Below are positions 38,181 to 42,068 of a DNA stretch of 44,581 nucleotides, piece by piece. Position numbers and translations under genes: made by a program. Source of the stretch: Escherichia phage vB_EcoS-K1_SXAU_B4. The stretch's first letter is position 1, and every line of letters starts with the position of its first letter. Where the stretch lies: sequence record OQ696342.1. One strand, given 5' to 3'. The notes under the pieces were generated by a model. That model was not told the origin of the DNA, ran no database searches, and was given only the letters and a program-made list of their open reading frames with translations.

Positions 38181-38662
38181 ATTCGTGGAAACGTTGACTG
38201 CGCGGTTCCGTATGCCTTAAGGAAACATCCCAGCCCGTCGCCATAGCAACCGTACAAATCTGGTAGATTGCGAACAAGGCACTGGTTATCTTCGTCCTGG
38301 AACGGCGATTTCTCTGCGGTTGCCGTGAAAGTAATCGTCCAGTTAATGCCGTCTTCGGTGGACTCGGCGATGGTGGACGTAATGGTTACCTGATAGTCCT
38401 CAATACCCATGCCGAAGTCGTGCGCCATCCAGAAACTTGACGCACCGCCGTCTACTTTTTCGAGGAACGACAGAAACGCCTGCCGTCCCAGTGCCGATGT
38501 AATCAGGGTTACGCTTATCGGAAACACGTCGTAATATGTGTCACGGCCCTGACGCACCCCGCCACCAGCTAAATCAACGCTCCAGACGTTGTTACGTCTG
38601 GTCATTGAGTAGCCTTTCGATACAATGGGCTTAAGACTACGTGGGAAATATAAGTCAGTCAT
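38162..38662 (-). CDS. Minor tail protein (lambda gpM-like, by position)
   Basis: 166 aa ORF immediately after the tape measure gene. Confidence 0.45.
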   Translation of the reverse strand: MTDLYFPRSLKPIVSKGYSMTRRNNVWSVDLAGGGVRQGRDTYYDVFPISVTLITSALGRQAFLSFLEKVDGGASSFWMAHDFGMGIEDYQVTITSTIAESTEDGINWTITFTATAEKSPFQDEDNQCLVRNLPDLYGCYGDGLGCFLKAYGTAQSTFPRIWDPMQ

Positions 38663-40950
38663 TATTTGAACCCCGGCGCGTTTCTTGTGGCCTTTCTGGC
38701 CTTGCTAATCTTACTGTTGCTGTTCTGCAAAGATGCGGCAACTTGCTCTTCGATGATGATACGCAAACGGCCTTCATCGTCCTGCTCAGTGGATACGTTG
38801 CCGATTTGAGAACTCGTATTGTTTACGATGGTAACATTAGACGGGCCGGAAGAAGACCCGTTTTGCCCCATAATTTCTTTCATCTGCTGTGCAGTGCGTA
38901 CACGTGACGCACCAGCAGGCATGATAACTTCGGGTTTACCGCGTTCAGCGATGGTGGAAGCCTGCCCCGCAGATAACTGACCGCCTTGTTCACGGGCGGA
39001 CCTGATAGCGGAAATCTGCGCCATACCCGCCCCAACGGCAGCGGCGGCAGCTACAGGAGCCAGGAACGGGCCGACTACAGGGATGGCAGCCGTTGACTTA
39101 TACGCCTCAATAGCCGCGGTGTATGTGGCTATGGTGGCCTGTACGATAGCGAACGCCTTGTATGCACCGGAAGCCTCGCCCAACGCCGAACCGATGTTTG
39201 AAGCCATGTTACCAAAGGCGGTTGCCGTTGCGTCGGCGCGCTTCGTAGCATACTGCTCATTGATAGCGTTAAGTGCCGCCTGATACTGTTCCTCGTTAAT
39301 CAGCCCCTGTTCGCGGTACTTATCGGCAACAGCCAGTTTCTGCTGTTCCTGGATGTCTAGAAGCTCAAGTTCAGTAGCGTTCTGACCCATAATCTGAGCC
39401 ATGAAGTCGTCACCTTTCTGCTGCTTTTCCTGGACTTCTTTCTGCCGTTTATCCAGTTCATCTTGCCGTTTTTGTCCGGCTTCGAGGACGATAGCTGTTT
39501 TAGCCTGTTCGTATTCTTTCAGTGACAACGCGCCCTGACTGTAAAACTCTTTTGCTTTAGCCAGTTTCTGCTGTTCCTGGGCGTCAATAGCCTTTAACTC
39601 GTCGTTGTTCTGACGCGCCAAAGTGTCGAGGTAATCTTGCGCCTGTTTGCGCAATTGCTCCGCTTTCTTAGCAGCAGCTTTCGCGTCTTTGTCGTTGGTA
39701 TTCCCGGCCCCACCAGTTCCACCCTTTTTATTAACAAGGCTGGCTAGGTCGATTTCTTGCTTCTTGCGCTCGTCGTACTGCTTGCGCTGTTCCTCAATTT
39801 CTTTCTTACGCTGCTTAGACCTGTTGGTAATGGCCTGTGATTCGGCCTCCGCGCGTTTTATGCTGGCGGCGTATGCGGCGTCGGCTTCTGCGGTCAGGTT
39901 TTTAAACGTGAGCGCTGCCGTTTTGCTAGGGTCAAACACGTCAGCAAGGGTCTGCCCTAACGCTACGGCATAATCGTCAATGCGCTGGAACCACGCAATA
40001 ACCTCGTGGAATGTCTGCTGAATATCAGGCAGCCATTCACGAATGGCATCTGGGATGGTACCCAGCGAGTCGGACATATCCACGGATTTGTCCTCGGTAT
40101 CGTATGCCAGGTCGTTTAAGGCATCAGAAATAAACTTGAACGATTCATTGAACAGTGTCACCCAATCCTGAAGCGTGGCGGCTATCTCATTAGATGCGAT
40201 GGCGTCGGTAAGCGCCGTGATAGCATCTTCCGCGGTCGCAGCTTGCTCGCCTACGGCGTCGCCGAAACCTGATTGCGCCACCGCAAGTACAAGGCCGTCA
40301 AAGGAGTCCGCCAGGCTCGACAACTGACCATCTAATGTCTTCGAGCGCGTCTCCATCGCTCCGGCGAAATCAGTGTTACCGATGTTTAACAGGTATTTCT
40401 GAATCTCTTCGGAGTTCTTCTTAACCGTGGTGGTAACACCGCGGAACGTGAACGACACTGTATCTGCCTGCTGTGACGACTTGATACCAAACTCTTTCAG
40501 TCGCTCAAACTCAAATGTACTGGCGTCCGCCACGGCCTCAATCATCTGATTAAGGTCTTTACCCATAGCCGCCGCGGTGTTGCCGTAGGAGATTAACGCC
40601 TCTTTGCTGGGGTTCAGACCGAGCGCAACTAGCTTGGTAAACCCCTCTACCGCCTGGTTGAGACCGTACGGTGTTTCTTTTGCAAACTGTTGCAGGACGC
40701 TGAAAGCCTTAGCCGCGTTCTCGGCACTCCCGGTCATTGTGATGAGACCGGAGTTCAGCTTATCGAAGTTGCGCTGTGAGTCCACAAGCGCGCTGAACAC
40801 CTGCTTAGCGGTTTCCAGACTGACAACGGCAGCGGCGGCGGCCCCCGCCGCCTTAGTAAGCCCGTTCAGTTGTGATGTGGTTTTATCGACGCCGGTCGAT
40901 GATACTCGTACTATTAAACTAGCGGTATCAGCCATGATTTCTACCTTCAA
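38662..40950 (-). CDS. Tail tape measure protein
   Basis: 762 aa, alanine-rich with long coiled-coil-like stretches; position between the chaperones and distal tail genes. Confidence 0.85.
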   Translation of the reverse strand: MKVEIMADTASLIVRVSSTGVDKTTSQLNGLTKAAGAAAAAVVSLETAKQVFSALVDSQRNFDKLNSGLITMTGSAENAAKAFSVLQQFAKETPYGLNQAVEGFTKLVALGLNPSKEALISYGNTAAAMGKDLNQMIEAVADASTFEFERLKEFGIKSSQQADTVSFTFRGVTTTVKKNSEEIQKYLLNIGNTDFAGAMETRSKTLDGQLSSLADSFDGLVLAVAQSGFGDAVGEQAATAEDAITALTDAIASNEIAATLQDWVTLFNESFKFISDALNDLAYDTEDKSVDMSDSLGTIPDAIREWLPDIQQTFHEVIAWFQRIDDYAVALGQTLADVFDPSKTAALTFKNLTAEADAAYAASIKRAEAESQAITNRSKQRKKEIEEQRKQYDERKKQEIDLASLVNKKGGTGGAGNTNDKDAKAAAKKAEQLRKQAQDYLDTLARQNNDELKAIDAQEQQKLAKAKEFYSQGALSLKEYEQAKTAIVLEAGQKRQDELDKRQKEVQEKQQKGDDFMAQIMGQNATELELLDIQEQQKLAVADKYREQGLINEEQYQAALNAINEQYATKRADATATAFGNMASNIGSALGEASGAYKAFAIVQATIATYTAAIEAYKSTAAIPVVGPFLAPVAAAAAVGAGMAQISAIRSAREQGGQLSAGQASTIAERGKPEVIMPAGASRVRTAQQMKEIMGQNGSSSGPSNVTIVNNTSSQIGNVSTEQDDEGRLRIIIEEQVAASLQNSNSKISKARKATRNAPGFK

Positions 40951-41317
40951 AGATTGCTTCTAAGCCCATGATAATGTCTATCTCGAACAGGCTAAGCTGT
41001 TTTTGCGTAACATCGAGATAGGCTTTCAGGTCTTGCCACGTAACGGATTCTCTTGCAAACAATACTACAGCGTCCTCGCGCACGTGTCGCGTAAACTTAA
41101 TGTCGCAATACGTCTCAAAGGTGGATATAAAAAGGGGTGGGCATTCTGGCCCACCCCGTCGCGCTGCACGTTTTTTCTTATCGATTACACCCATCGCGAT
41201 AAGCGCCTGTTCGTGTCCGTCAGCTATAGAATCAAACTCTCTGATTTTATGCTTATCAACGAACTCGTAGGTGGCGAACCTGTACAGCGCGTCTACTTTT
41301 CCTGTAATGCTTTGCGC
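40928..41317 (-). CDS. Possible -1 frameshift extension of the tail assembly chaperone (G/GT-like)
   Basis: The -1 frame is open from 41317 and overlaps the chaperone's last 8 codons; a non-canonical slippery stretch G GAA AAG is in the overlap; alternatively an independent 88-aa gene from ATG 41194. Confidence 0.35.
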   Translation of the reverse strand, partial: AQSITGKVDALYRFATYEFVDKHKIREFDSIADGHEQALIAMGVIDKKKRAARRGGPECPPLFISTFETYCDIKFTRHVREDAVVLFARESVTWQDLKAYLDVTQKQLSLFEIDIIMGLEAIFEGRNHG

Positions 41318-41709
41318 TCAGCGTTATGAAACGCGGCAACCTGTGTGCCTAAGGCCTTGAACTGGTCGAGCAATTTGTTAAACGCCTCCTTAGAGAAAGG
41401 CTCGTCAAAGCTCCAGCCGTTTACGACTTCTGCCGCAAGTTGCCGGTTGAGGTCTTCCGCCAGTTCGTTAACCGCCAGGTTATATTCAGTATAGTCGCCG
41501 GATTCTTTGGCGGCTTTTTCCAGTTCTTCAAAACGCGCTAGCCCGCGGCGGTACGCGATAATGAAAGCACGCCCCGCTTTAACGGCGGCATCCGCATCCG
41601 GATTTACAACATTAAGCCACTCACCGGAGTCTTCGCCATTCGGCAGGAGAATCGGCATCTTCTTGCCTACCAGTGCTTTCTCTTCGAAATAAAAATCAGA
41701 AAGTTTCAT
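41293..41709 (-). CDS. Tail assembly chaperone
   Basis: 138 aa acidic protein immediately upstream of the tape measure gene. Confidence 0.55.
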   Translation of the reverse strand: MKLSDFYFEEKALVGKKMPILLPNGEDSGEWLNVVNPDADAAVKAGRAFIIAYRRGLARFEELEKAAKESGDYTEYNLAVNELAEDLNRQLAAEVVNGWSFDEPFSKEAFNKLLDQFKALGTQVAAFHNAERKALQEK

Positions 41710-41817
41710 TCTTTAATCCTTTGGTTAAGAGGTTACAGGTTATCGATAAATGCGCCAGACGGGAACCACCCGCTTTTCGTGTGCGACACTAGGCGCAAAC
41801 TTATTCTAGCACATTAC

Positions 41818-41846
41818 TTGCACACCCCAATATAATAGGGTACTAT
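41818..41846 (+). promoter_or_regulatory. Sigma70-type promoter TTGCAC-N17-TACTAT (cassette family copy)
   Basis: Near-identical to the 6731 and 8886 cassettes. Confidence 0.6.
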
Positions 41847-41876
41847 TCACTTACACCAACAATGAAGGGGTTTAAA

Positions 41877-42068
41877 ATGTCCAGTTTACCAGTTTCCTTA
41901 ATTCTGTTCGCACTGCTTGCTTATTTCGCACCTTTCCTGGTTGCGTACTTCCGTAATCATAAAGCGAAGTTAGCGATATTCATGGCCAATCTGTTTCTTG
42001 GTTGGATTCTGCTGCCGTGGGTATTTATTTTAATCTGGGCGTGCAACTCGAATGTTAACGAGAAGTGA
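41877..42068 (+). CDS. Small membrane protein, superinfection-immunity (Imm)-like
   Basis: 63 aa from ATG 41877 (RBS AAGGGG); YFAPFLVAYFRNHKAKLAIFMANLFLGWILLPWVFILIWA resembles the remembered Imm family pattern; the ORF track starts at 41862. Confidence 0.5.
   Translation: MSSLPVSLILFALLAYFAPFLVAYFRNHKAKLAIFMANLFLGWILLPWVFILIWACNSNVNEK

What the first reader, a model, noticed from the sequence alone, without database searches (positions are those of the whole stretch)
40928..41709. Possible programmed -1 frameshift in the tail assembly chaperone (G/GT-like)
The chaperone ORF (41709..41293) ends inside an 8-codon overlap with a -1 frame that stays open to 40928, just into the tape measure gene start, mirroring the lambda G/GT arrangement. 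The overlap contains G GAA AAG rather than the canonical GGGAAAG slippery heptamer, so efficiency or mechanism may differ.
Basis: inference. Interest (0 to 1): 0.4.

Follow-up and report, generated by a model that had tools for sequence, protein, structure and literature searches.

The report
Conserved tail-chaperone frameshift, non-canonical slip site
This is the ordinary lambda-style G/GT tail-assembly-chaperone frameshift of a K1G-like (Kagunavirus) coliphage, already annotated in close relatives; its only unusual feature is a minimal slip site (A_AAG directly before the stop codon) that never varies across the phage subfamily.

Summary
On the minus strand, a 138-aa chaperone ORF (41709..41293) ends CAG GAA AAG TAG. 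The -1 frame is open from 22 nt before that stop to TGA 40930..40928, 8 nt inside the tape-measure gene.

The window is a Kagunavirus, about 96% identical to K1ind2. GenBank and RefSeq records of K1ind2 already carry this joined CDS, with the junction ...ALQEK|VDALY.

In 84 of 84 usable related loci (25 lineages, about 50% protein identity), G ends GNA AAG TAR and about 120 codons follow in the -1 frame. Codon-position variability switches frame exactly at the stop. Some lineages have no ATG, GTG or TTG in the T frame before codon 95-109, so T cannot be made independently.

Among the conserved degenerate codons compared, only the AAG, GTA, GCG and YTG codons at the junction have invariant third positions. 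This defines a roughly 17-nt cassette, GNA_AAG_UAR_NN_GCGYUG.

I found no conserved downstream RNA structure and no upstream Shine-Dalgarno-like element.

The most likely mechanism is tRNA-Lys slipping from AAG to AAA at a weakly terminated stop. In this phage, near-cognate re-pairing of tRNA-Glu (G_GAA) probably helps.

Verdict: real, ordinary and already known. The stop-abutting cassette and its conserved 3' hexamer are a small unexplained extra.

The parts
41293..41709 (-). G-like tail assembly chaperone ORF: 138 aa, 15.5 kDa, ATG at 41709, TAG at 41295..41293.
   Evidence: Pfam PF08748 Phage_TAC_4, 27 bits against a cutoff of 21.1. phrog_15027 positions 1-138. Annotated as tail assembly chaperone in K1ind2.
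41717..41720 (-). Shine-Dalgarno sequence AGGA, 7 nt upstream of the G start codon.
   Evidence: Read directly from the sequence. Inference only.
41296..41302 (-). Slip site G_GAA_AAG. The invariant core is A_AAG, 41299..41296. tRNA-Lys re-pairs from AAG to AAA.
   Evidence: A_AAG is invariant in 85 of 85 loci and 25 of 25 lineages. The preceding codon is always GNA (GAA, GCA, GTA or GGA). GAA is always preceded by G, within the codons CAG, TTG, CTG, ATG, TCG and GCG.
41293..41295 (-). G stop codon UAG directly abutting the slip site. The next base is A, a weak termination context by established knowledge.
   Evidence: The stop is TAG in 17 lineages and TAA in 8, never TGA. The base after the stop is A in 16 lineages and C in 9, never G or T.
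41285..41290 (-). Conserved 3' hexamer GCGCUG (Ala-Leu in the -1 frame), 5 nt after the AAG codon. Its role is unknown.
   Evidence: GCG in 25 of 25 lineages and YTG in 25 of 25, with zero third-position entropy. Every other conserved degenerate codon compared has 0.4-2.0 bits.
40928..41296 (-). T extension read in the -1 frame: 122 aa from GUA (Val) to TGA 40930..40928. The fused GT product is join(41709..41296, 41296..40928), 260 aa, 29.6 kDa.
   Evidence: Pfam PF23812 Phage_TAC_18, 67.7 bits. phrog_15027 positions 139-259. Mean entropy by codon position for T codons 5-33 is 0.68 / 0.63 / 1.43 bits. tblastn alignments start at T residue 1.
38662..40935 (-). Tape measure protein gene, 757 aa. 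Its ATG overlaps the end of GT by 8 nt.
   Evidence: Pfam TMP_3, E = 1.2e-9, 38.6 bits, just under the 41-bit cutoff. K1ind2 annotation.
41127..41157 (-). Terminator-like hairpin inside the T ORF, GGGGUGGGC-CAGAAU-GCCCACCCC followed by UUUUUAU, about 140 nt 3' of the slip site. It is too far away to stimulate the frameshift and is listed only because it lies within the finding's coordinates.
   Evidence: -23.7 kcal/mol, z = -2.6; a hairpin plus U-run sits at the same place in 11 of the 26 sequences compared, with partial covariation support.

Best explanation
The region encodes the two tail assembly chaperones of a Kagunavirus siphophage from one start codon.

**What is made.** Most ribosomes translate G (138 aa) and terminate at UAG 41295..41293. 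A minority slip back one nucleotide on the last sense codon. They continue in the -1 frame through 122 more codons and make the 260-aa GT protein, with junction ...A-L-Q-E-K|V-D-A-L-Y...

**How the slip occurs.**
- The universally required element is A_AAG followed at once by UAR.
- E. coli's single tRNA-Lys (anticodon mnm5s2UUU) pairs poorly with AAG and perfectly with the overlapping AAA.
- The stop is followed by A or C, a weak termination context. This should lengthen the time the tRNA sits on AAG with an unfilled A site.
- After the slip the A site shows GUA (Val).
- In this phage, and in most lineages, the site is the near-heptamer G_GAA_AAG. tRNA-Glu can therefore re-pair on GGA with a G.U pair in the middle position, allowing a tandem slip.
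- Other lineages use GCA_AAG or GUA_AAG without a re-pairing base. This fits the known NNA_AAG hexamer class.

**What the products do.** By analogy with lambda, G and the G part of GT coat the tape measure protein. The T domain recruits the tail tube protein. Neither ends up in the virion.

**Status of each step.**
- Shown here: the ORF geometry, homology, conservation and nucleotide-level selection.
- Inferred: the slip itself, its efficiency, which ribosomal site the tRNA occupies when it slips, and the assembly role.
For: 1. **Geometry.**
2. **Identity.** The window is about 96% identical to K1ind2, K1G and related phages. G matches PF08748, T matches PF23812, and the fusion matches phrog_15027 positions 1-259 of 259, E = 1.7e-148.
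3. **Prior annotation of the same join.** GU196280 ORF21B and RefSeq YP_009597354.1 are two-piece CDSs. The exact sequence ...ALQEK|VDALY... is ADA82419.1 / UniRef100_D2XJT9, whereas the alternative join ...ALQGK... is absent from the collection. The Shemara record names a 'frameshift product'.
4. **Conservation.** All 84 usable loci from GenBank and IMG/VR end GNA AAG TAR, with 118-121 codons open in the -1 frame where the contig allows and only 4-80 in the +1 frame.
5. **Localisation.** In L045 and L048 the -1 frame is closed until 7 nt before the stop, so the shift must occur within GCA_AAG.
6. **Frame switch.** Third-position variability moves from frame 0 to frame -1 exactly at the stop. 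T codons 5-33 have entropies of 0.68 / 0.63 / 1.43 bits by codon position.
7. **Synonymous sites.** Only K138 AAG, T1 GTA, T3 GCG and T4 YTG have invariant third positions among the conserved degenerate codons compared.
8. **No independent start.** L082 and L084 have no ATG, GTG or TTG in the T frame before codon 109, L067 before codon 95, and L081 before codon 51. The window's ATG (codon 35) is ATC or ATA in eight lineages.
9. **Homology boundary.** T-domain tblastn alignments start at residue 1 in 491 of 493 records.
10. **Literature.** A_AA.G is by far the most shift-prone tetramer in E. coli, and G_GGA_AAG is highly shift-prone (PMC4066793; PMC5009743). NNA_AAG efficiency depends on the wobble properties of the tRNA reading the 5' codon (PMC5009743). 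GAA-to-GGA re-pairing with G.U has been discussed for phage chaperone frameshift sites (PMC10885494).
11. **No phage tRNA.** The window carries no tRNA gene that could alter Lys decoding.
Against: - There is no protein-level evidence, here or in any paper I could find.
- In reporter assays the bare A_AA.G tetramer is barely above background without a stimulator (0.147% against 0.112%). It reaches 5.6% only with a pseudoknot (PMC4066793).
- I found no conserved downstream structure and no upstream SD-like element. The efficiency is therefore unknown and could be very low.
- G_GAA_AAG itself was not among the heptamers tested in that study.
- The review states that a slow-to-decode A site matters more for +1 than for -1 shifting.
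- The conserved GCGYUG hexamer is not explained by this model.
Confidence: 0.9

Rival explanations
1. The downstream ORF is translated on its own and no fusion is made. This could start at the ATG at 41194, giving an 88-aa, 10.1-kDa protein. Alternatively, it could arise by termination and reinitiation at the conserved YUG codon (CUG at 41287..41285), 8 nt after the first base of the G stop codon, using the AGGA inside CAGGAAAAG as a Shine-Dalgarno sequence.
For: - Many GenBank records annotate a separate ORF, for example EM1 at 88 aa, and Bas74, LSPA1 and Shashou at 119 aa from a TTG or CTG-position start.
- The YUG codon has an invariant third base, and TTG occupies that position in 3 of 25 lineages.
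- The Pfam Phage_TAC_18 model covers only the part after the ATG.
Against: - ATG-35 is Ile (ATC or ATA) in eight lineages.
- L082 and L084 have no ATG, GTG or TTG in the T frame before codon 109, and L067 none before codon 95.
- The position is CUG, a very poor initiator, in 22 of 25 lineages, and never AUG or GUG.
- AAC_GCA_AAG and TCA_GCA_AAG lineages have no SD-like sequence.
- Reinitiation does not explain the invariant A_AAG or the GNA third base.
- T codons 5-33 are under protein-level selection.
Confidence: 0.05
2. The same fused protein is made by transcriptional slippage. RNA polymerase would insert one extra A in the GAAAAG run, so that standard translation reads GAA AAA GUA.
For: A one-A insertion gives exactly the same protein sequence (...E-K-V-D...), so annotation and conservation cannot distinguish the two routes. 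This is inference.
Against: - The run is only 4 A's in the window, and only 3 A's in the GCA_AAG and GUA_AAG lineages.
- By established knowledge, productive slippage by bacterial RNA polymerase needs runs of about 7-9 or more.
- Strict conservation of the G after the A's and of the adjacent stop codon is not needed for polymerase slippage.
Confidence: 0.03
3. The -1 ORF is not expressed at a useful level. On this view the arrangement is an evolutionary relic and the chaperone function rests on G alone.
For: Bare A_AAG is nearly inert in reporters, and no stimulator was found.
Against: - A 120-codon frame kept open in 84 of 84 loci at about 40-55% T-domain identity, with a clear third-position signature, cannot be a relic.
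- There is synonymous-site conservation at the junction.
Confidence: 0.02

Closest known systems
Escherichia phage K1ind2 ORF21A/ORF21B (GU196280: ADA82418.1 and ADA82419.1; RefSeq YP_009597355.1 and YP_009597354.1), and the same pair in K1ind3. The Cornellvirus phage Shemara also annotates a 'tail assembly chaperone frameshift product'.
   Same: - Same genus, about 96% nucleotide identity, identical cassette CAG GAA AAG TAG ACGCGCTG.
- Same lengths, 138 aa and 260 aa.
- Same annotated junction ...ALQEK|VDALY....
   Different: Only a few amino-acid substitutions; the window's exact fused sequence is not in the protein collection. Those records give no mechanism and no experimental support.
Bacteriophage lambda gpG/gpGT (Levin, Hendrix and Casjens 1993; Xu, Hendrix and Duda 2004, 2013, 2014; summarised in PMC5009743).
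   Same: - Two chaperones from one start by a low-level -1 shift near the 3' end of G.
- Located immediately upstream of the tape measure gene.
- The T frame has no start of its own.
- No conserved stimulatory structure was found here; from my own memory of Levin et al. 1993, not checked here, lambda needs none.
   Different: - Lambda uses the canonical G_GGA_AAG, and from my own memory (not checked here) G continues for several codons after it. Here the site is G_GAA_AAG, or GCA_AAG / GUA_AAG in other lineages, and abuts the stop codon in every lineage.
- There is no detectable sequence similarity to lambda G or T; the Pfam families differ.
- G is not preceded by the major tail gene. It follows a divergent promoter region next to a superinfection-immunity gene.
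A_AAG tetranucleotide and NNA_AAG hexanucleotide -1 frameshift sites: IS1222 G_CGA_AAG, Bacillus subtilis cdd A_CGA_AAG, and synthetic E. coli constructs (PMC5009743; PMC4066793).
   Same: - Single tRNA-Lys re-pairing from AAG to AAA.
- The 5' codon ends in A and is read by a U34 tRNA.
- The site works in a host with one tRNA-Lys.
   Different: - From my own memory, not checked here, the natural IS1222 and cdd sites rely on a downstream structure or an upstream SD; in the paper read, the synthetic tetramer needed the IS3 pseudoknot. Neither kind of element is conserved here.
- Here the stop codon is always adjacent, and a 3' hexamer GCGYUG is conserved.
Pea enation mosaic virus RNA2 shift site G_GAU_UUU followed by UGG_UAG (PMC5009743).
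   Same: It is a near-heptamer of the G_GAN type, in which the P-site tRNA re-pairs on GGA. A nearby stop codon is needed for efficient -1 shifting.
   Different: It is a eukaryotic RNA virus. Its stop is one codon away rather than adjacent, and it has downstream hairpins and long-range interactions.

Membership tests
Lambda-type G/GT tail assembly chaperone pair with programmed frameshift (Xu, Hendrix and Duda 2004) | Two overlapping ORFs immediately upstream of the tape measure gene, with the second in the -1 frame relative to the first. | tested here: met
   The tape measure gene is identified by Pfam TMP_3, E = 1.2e-9, and by the K1ind2 annotation.
Lambda-type G/GT tail assembly chaperone pair with programmed frameshift (Xu, Hendrix and Duda 2004) | The second ORF has no conserved translation start of its own, and it is protein-coding right from the overlap. 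| tested here: met
   No ATG, GTG or TTG before codon 95-109 in L067, L082 and L084. Codon-position entropy is 0.68 / 0.63 / 1.43 bits for T codons 5-33. The frame switch is at the stop. tblastn alignments start at T residue 1.
Lambda-type G/GT tail assembly chaperone pair with programmed frameshift (Xu, Hendrix and Duda 2004) | A shift-prone sequence lies in the overlap. The canonical form is X_XXY_YYZ. | tested here: inconclusive
   The strict heptamer is not present: the window has G_GAA_AAG. The shift-prone tetramer A_AAG is present and invariant. One relative, L018 (RP180-like), has canonical G_GGA_AAG. Shiftiness of G_GAA_AAG has not been measured.
Lambda-type G/GT tail assembly chaperone pair with programmed frameshift (Xu, Hendrix and Duda 2004) | Two products, G and GT, are made at a fixed ratio. 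Both are needed for tail assembly and both are absent from virions. | not testable with these tools
   This needs western blots, mass spectrometry and genetics. I found no such data for Guernseyvirinae.
Pfam Phage_TAC_4 (PF08748), Phage_TAC_18 (PF23812) and PHROG 15027 | Profile match above the curated threshold. | tested here: met
   G scores 27 bits against a cutoff of 21.1. T scores 67.7 bits against a cutoff of 27. The fusion matches phrog_15027 positions 1-259 of 259, E = 1.7e-148.
A_AAG / NNA_AAG single-tRNA -1 frameshift sites (IS1222, cdd; Sharma 2014; and, from my own knowledge, Licznar 2003) | [quoted passage not shown] | tested here: met
   GNA_AAG is present in 85 of 85 loci. In L045 and L048 the shift is confined to GCA_AAG.
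A_AAG / NNA_AAG single-tRNA -1 frameshift sites (IS1222, cdd; Sharma 2014; and, from my own knowledge, Licznar 2003) | A stimulator: a downstream hairpin or pseudoknot 5-9 nt from the site, or an upstream SD-like sequence. | tested here: not met
   - Window fold z = -0.80 and -0.56.
- RNAalifold consensus energy is -0.18 kcal/mol.
- Hand-named helices are 68.0% paired against 68.1% in shuffles.
- Mean MFE z-score over the 26 sequences is -0.39.
- Upstream columns -22 to -10 are all variable.
- No Rfam hit.
- A few other lineages (SETP3, the Shashou type, L026) do have unusually stable folds, z = -2.4 to -3.8.
A_AAG / NNA_AAG single-tRNA -1 frameshift sites (IS1222, cdd; Sharma 2014; and, from my own knowledge, Licznar 2003) | The host decodes AAA and AAG with a single tRNA-Lys (UUU anticodon). 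| not tested
   This is established knowledge for E. coli (PMC5009743). The window encodes no tRNA. The host is inferred from relatives.

The most novel reading that the evidence does not exclude
The Guernseyvirinae site could be a distinct, structure-free type of -1 frameshift cassette, GNA_AAG_UAR_(A/C)N_GCGYUG. In this reading the stop codon abutting the slip codon, set in a weak termination context, and a conserved unstructured 3' hexamer together replace the hairpin, pseudoknot or SD stimulators that other A_AAG sites need. This would be a '-1 shifty stop' tuned by release-factor kinetics or by an mRNA-ribosome contact 9-14 nt 3' of the P site.
Probability: 0.2. Interest if true: 0.5.

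Novelty: already known. Interest (0 to 1): 0.22.

Why it matters
**Practical value.**
- Public records of this roughly 500-genome phage group annotate the locus inconsistently. Some use a joined CDS, some two chaperones, some a hypothetical protein, and one paper explicitly says there is 'no canonical slippery sequence'.
- The comparative evidence here settles that the frameshift is real. It fixes the junction at the last sense codon of G, so the whole group can be annotated uniformly.

**Mechanistic value.**
- The group offers a natural series of A_AAG sites: G_GAA_AAG, G_GGA_AAG, G_GUA_AAG and N_GCA_AAG. All abut a stop codon and all are followed by GCGYUG.
- This series could be used to test how a bare tetramer reaches a useful efficiency without an RNA structure.
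- This is a modest refinement of a well-known phenomenon, not a new one.

Tried and rejected
- **Downstream stimulatory RNA structure: rejected.**
  - The window's fold is not better than shuffles (z = -0.80, -0.56).
  - RNAalifold on 26 sequences gives essentially no consensus structure.
  - Two helices suggested by single-sequence folds (columns 10-16/91-97 and 24-29/81-86) show no covariation and the same pairing as shuffles.
  - The pairing probability of the GCGYUG hexamer equals the shuffled expectation.
- **Upstream SD-like stimulator: rejected.** No conserved purine-rich block lies 10-17 nt upstream.
- **+1 frame: rejected.** It is open for only 4-80 codons and is not conserved.
- **Known RNA families and tRNAs: none found.** No Rfam match and no tRNA gene in the window.
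- **Solved structures: nothing useful.** No meaningful PDB relative by sequence; the best hit had E = 0.0056 over 33 residues.
- **Literature on Kagunavirus or Jerseyvirinae frameshifting: little found.**
  - No paper in the library combines 'Kagunavirus' and 'frameshift'.
  - Three sister-phage genome announcements do not mention it.
  - The Anany et al. 2015 Jerseyvirinae paper, cited in the Shashou GenBank note, was not in the searchable library.
- **Not attempted:**
  - Structure prediction of GT.
  - The large protein-database searches.
  - They would not have changed the verdict.
Full report
**1. What is in the sequence**

All features are on the minus strand.
- An ORF starts at ATG 41709, with AGGA 7 nt upstream. 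It ends ...GCA TTA CAG GAA AAG TAG at 41295..41293 and encodes 138 aa.
- The -1 frame has a TGA 25 nt before that stop. It is open for the last 22 nt of the ORF and continues for 121 further codons to TGA 40930..40928.
- That stop lies 8 nt inside the next gene (ATG 40935, 757 aa). This gene matches Pfam TMP_3 (E = 1.2e-9) and is the tape measure protein in annotated relatives.
- The only Z_ZZN motif in the overlap is A_AAG (41299..41296), within G_GAA_AAG.
- The fusion would be 260 aa and 29.6 kDa. G alone is 15.5 kDa.

**2. What organism and locus this is**

- The region is 95-96% identical to K1-specific coliphages K1ind1-3 and K1G and to many other Kagunavirus genomes (Guernseyvirinae). 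There were 116 megablast hits.
- G matches Pfam Phage_TAC_4 (27 bits against a cutoff of 21.1). The extension matches Phage_TAC_18 (67.7 bits).
- The conceptual fusion matches PHROG 15027, 'tail assembly chaperone', over all 259 profile positions (E = 1.7e-148). That profile was evidently built from fused products.
- The original K1ind2 GenBank record (GU196280, ORF21B, ADA82419.1) and its RefSeq copy annotate a two-piece joined CDS over exactly this span.
- An exact-sequence look-up shows that the deposited protein has the junction ...ALQEK|VDALY.... This means a shift on the last sense codon. The alternative ...ALQGK... is not in the collection.
- The Cornellvirus phage Shemara is annotated the same way.
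- Other records split the locus into two 'chaperones' or into hypothetical proteins.
- The frameshift is thus already annotated in this genus, but not consistently, and I found no experimental test.

**3. Comparative test**

I collected 80 IMG/VR loci and 7 GenBank loci spanning Kagunavirus, Jerseyvirus, Cornellvirus and unclassified relatives. G identity falls to about 44%.

- **Arrangement.**
  - In all 84 usable loci, G (138 aa; 134 aa in one) ends NNN GNA AAG TAR.
  - The -1 frame then runs 118-121 codons wherever the contig allows.
  - The +1 frame closes after 4-80 codons.
- **Frame switch.**
  - Across 25 lineages (under 90% identity in this region), positions -4 to +1 relative to the stop's first base (A AAG TA) are invariant.
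  - Upstream of the stop, the high-entropy positions are frame-0 third positions.
  - From the first codons after the stop, they are -1-frame third positions.
  - T codons 5-33 lie upstream of the window's first in-frame ATG. Their mean entropies by codon position are 0.68 / 0.63 / 1.43 bits.
- **Homology boundary.** A tblastn search with the T domain aligns from residue 1, which is the G of AAG, in 491 of 493 phage records.
- **Localisation.** In L045 and L048, a -1-frame TAA lies just upstream, leaving that frame open for only the last 7 nt of G. This confines the shift to GCA_AAG.
- **No independent start.**
  - L082 and L084 have no ATG, GTG or TTG in the T frame before codon 109.
  - L067 has none before codon 95, and L081 none before codon 51.
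  - The window's ATG-35 is ATC or ATA in eight lineages.
  - Independent translation of T is therefore excluded as the conserved mode of expression.

**4. Anatomy of the slip cassette**

- **Synonymous sites.**
  - I compared every conserved degenerate codon in G and in the first 40 T codons.
  - All have third-position entropy of 0.4-2.0 bits except four: K138 AAG (24/24), T1 GTA (25/25), T3 GCG (25/25) and T4 YTG (25/25).
  - This indicates nucleotide-level selection on about 17 contiguous nucleotides, GNA_AAG_UAR_NN_GCGYUG.
- **The codon before AAG.**
  - It is GAA in 17 lineages, GCA in 6 and GTA in 2. One locus, L018 (RP180-like), has GGA, which makes the canonical G_GGA_AAG.
  - The amino acid varies but the third base is always A.
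  - GAA is always preceded by G, as the third base of the codons CAG, TTG, CTG, ATG, TCG and GCG.
  - GCA is preceded by G, C or A.
- **Two variants.**
  - The first is a near-heptamer G_GAA_AAG, in which tRNA-Glu could re-pair on GGA with a central G.U.
  - The second is a bare hexamer GCA_AAG or GUA_AAG, whose 5' codon is read by a cmo5U34 tRNA (my own knowledge).
  - PMC5009743 describes this NNA_AAG class. Its efficiency depends on the wobble flexibility of the 5' tRNA.
- **The stop codon.**
  - It is TAG in 17 lineages and TAA in 8, never TGA.
  - The next base is A (16) or C (9), never U or G, even though the overlapping T2 codon takes ten forms.
  - From my own knowledge (Poole, Brown and Tate 1995), A or C after the stop gives the weakest termination in E. 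coli.
  - This fits a model in which slow release-factor action gives peptidyl-tRNA-Lys time to slip. It remains an inference.

**5. Stimulators**

None was found that is conserved.
- The window's downstream 130 nt folds no better than shuffles (z = -0.80, -0.56).
- RNAalifold on 26 sequences gives -0.18 kcal/mol.
- Helices suggested by single-sequence folds are 68.0% paired against 68.1% in shuffles, with no covariation.
- The GCGYUG hexamer is no more likely to be paired than in shuffled contexts.
- Nothing conserved lies 10-17 nt upstream.
- A few other lineages (SETP3, the Shashou type, L026) have unusually stable downstream folds, z = -2.4 to -3.8. These start too far from the site and are not shared.
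- This matters because the bare A_AA.G tetramer gave 0.147% against a background of 0.112% without a stimulator. It gave up to 5.6% with a pseudoknot in E. coli reporters (PMC4066793).
- Either a very low level suffices here, or the adjacent stop, the G_GAA context and/or the GCGYUG hexamer raise the efficiency. The role of GCGYUG is unexplained.

**6. Mechanism and function (best explanation, confidence 0.9 for the frameshift itself)**

- tRNA-Lys slips from AAG to AAA on the last sense codon of G. The ribosome then reads GUA GAC GCG CUG... and makes GT.
- Whether the slip happens with AAG in the A site during translocation, or in the P site facing the stop, cannot be told from the sequence. 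Both routes give the same protein.
- By analogy with lambda (PMC5009743), G and GT should bind the tape measure protein. The T domain should recruit the tube protein. This role is inferred from homology and synteny only.
- Rivals:
  - independent initiation or reinitiation of T, 0.05;
  - transcriptional slippage in a run of only 3-4 A's, 0.03;
  - a non-expressed relic, 0.02.

**7. Comparison with known systems, and novelty**

- The locus works like lambda G/GT and meets the family's architectural criteria. It is unrelated to lambda in sequence.
- It lacks the canonical heptamer, and G is not preceded by the tail tube gene. G follows a divergent intergenic region next to a superinfection-immunity gene.
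- Distant G homologues are Vibrio phage 1.117.O and Xanthomonas phage Elanor. They carry the canonical T_TTT_TTC about 20-60 nt upstream of the G stop and a different T domain. The A_AAG-stop solution is therefore specific to Guernseyvirinae.
- The slip site belongs to the known A_AAG / NNA_AAG class (IS1222, cdd).
- The identical join is already in GenBank, RefSeq and UniProt for phages about 96% identical, so the finding is already known.
- The small new element is the subfamily-wide cassette: a stop-abutting A_AAG, a restricted fourth base, and the GCGYUG hexamer.
- Interest is 0.22. If the cassette proved to be a structure-free, stop-dependent stimulator (probability about 0.2), interest would be about 0.5.

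Noticed in passing
window 41127..41157, minus strand (inside the T ORF): A strong terminator-like element sits here: a 9-bp stem with 8 G-C pairs, GGGGUGGGC-CAGAAU-GCCCACCCC, followed by UUUUUAU (-23.7 kcal/mol, z = -2.6). It encodes RGGPECPPLFI.

- A hairpin plus U-run sits at the same place in 11 of the 26 sequences compared. SETP3 has a different hairpin there.
- The GPECP motif is kept without a hairpin in L026, so coding does not force the structure.
- Covariation is partly supportive: 61% paired against 51% in shuffles, but one slid control scores similarly.

It could be a partial terminator that raises G mRNA relative to tape-measure mRNA.
   Followed up: partly
window 41285..41290, minus strand (GCGCUG); columns +5 to +10 after the first base of the G stop codon in all lineages: The Ala-Leu codons GCG YUG just after the slip site have invariant third positions in 25 of 25 lineages, unlike every other conserved degenerate codon in G and T. 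They are not part of any conserved helix. The role is unknown.
   Followed up: partly
L018 (IMG/VR copy of a 44,851-bp genome, the length of Raoultella phage RP180), end of G: This relative has CAG GGA AAG TAG, the canonical lambda heptamer G_GGA_AAG. It differs from the window's G_GAA_AAG by a single A-to-G change, E137G.
   Followed up: no
L089 (Vibrio phage 1.117.O) and L091 (Xanthomonas phage Elanor): These distant G homologues have the same G / -1 T / tape-measure layout. They use a canonical T_TTT_TTC heptamer about 20-60 nt before the G stop and a different T domain. The frameshift is not annotated in either record.
   Followed up: partly
L088 (Pseudomonas phage PaMx28, JQ067089.2): The T-like sequence (...FFRGRVEQL...PRGSKQ...) lies in the +1 frame relative to the annotated G ORF. 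That frame is open for 395 nt upstream of the G stop, so the G call or the sequence may be off. The record also annotates a terminator between the G stop and the tape measure gene.
   Followed up: no
L004 (SETP3), L005 and L025 (Shashou type), L026; the 100 nt after the slip site: These lineages have unusually stable downstream folds (z = -2.4, -3.2, -2.8 and -3.8). The window's lineage does not (z = -0.56). They may be lineage-specific modulators, or a by-product of the GCCCG...CGGGC codons.
   Followed up: partly
window 41710..42068: G is not preceded by the tail tube gene. It starts an operon at a roughly 150-nt divergent intergenic region. On the other side lies a 68-aa superinfection-immunity gene (Pfam Imm_superinfect, 47.6 bits), followed by genes that correspond to the exonuclease and polynucleotide kinase of K1ind2.
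   Followed up: no
GenBank and RefSeq records of Guernseyvirinae: Annotation of the T frame is inconsistent across about 500 records. Forms seen include a joined CDS, a separate 88-aa ORF, a separate 119-aa ORF starting at the TTG or CTG-position codon, a hypothetical protein, or nothing.
   Followed up: partly
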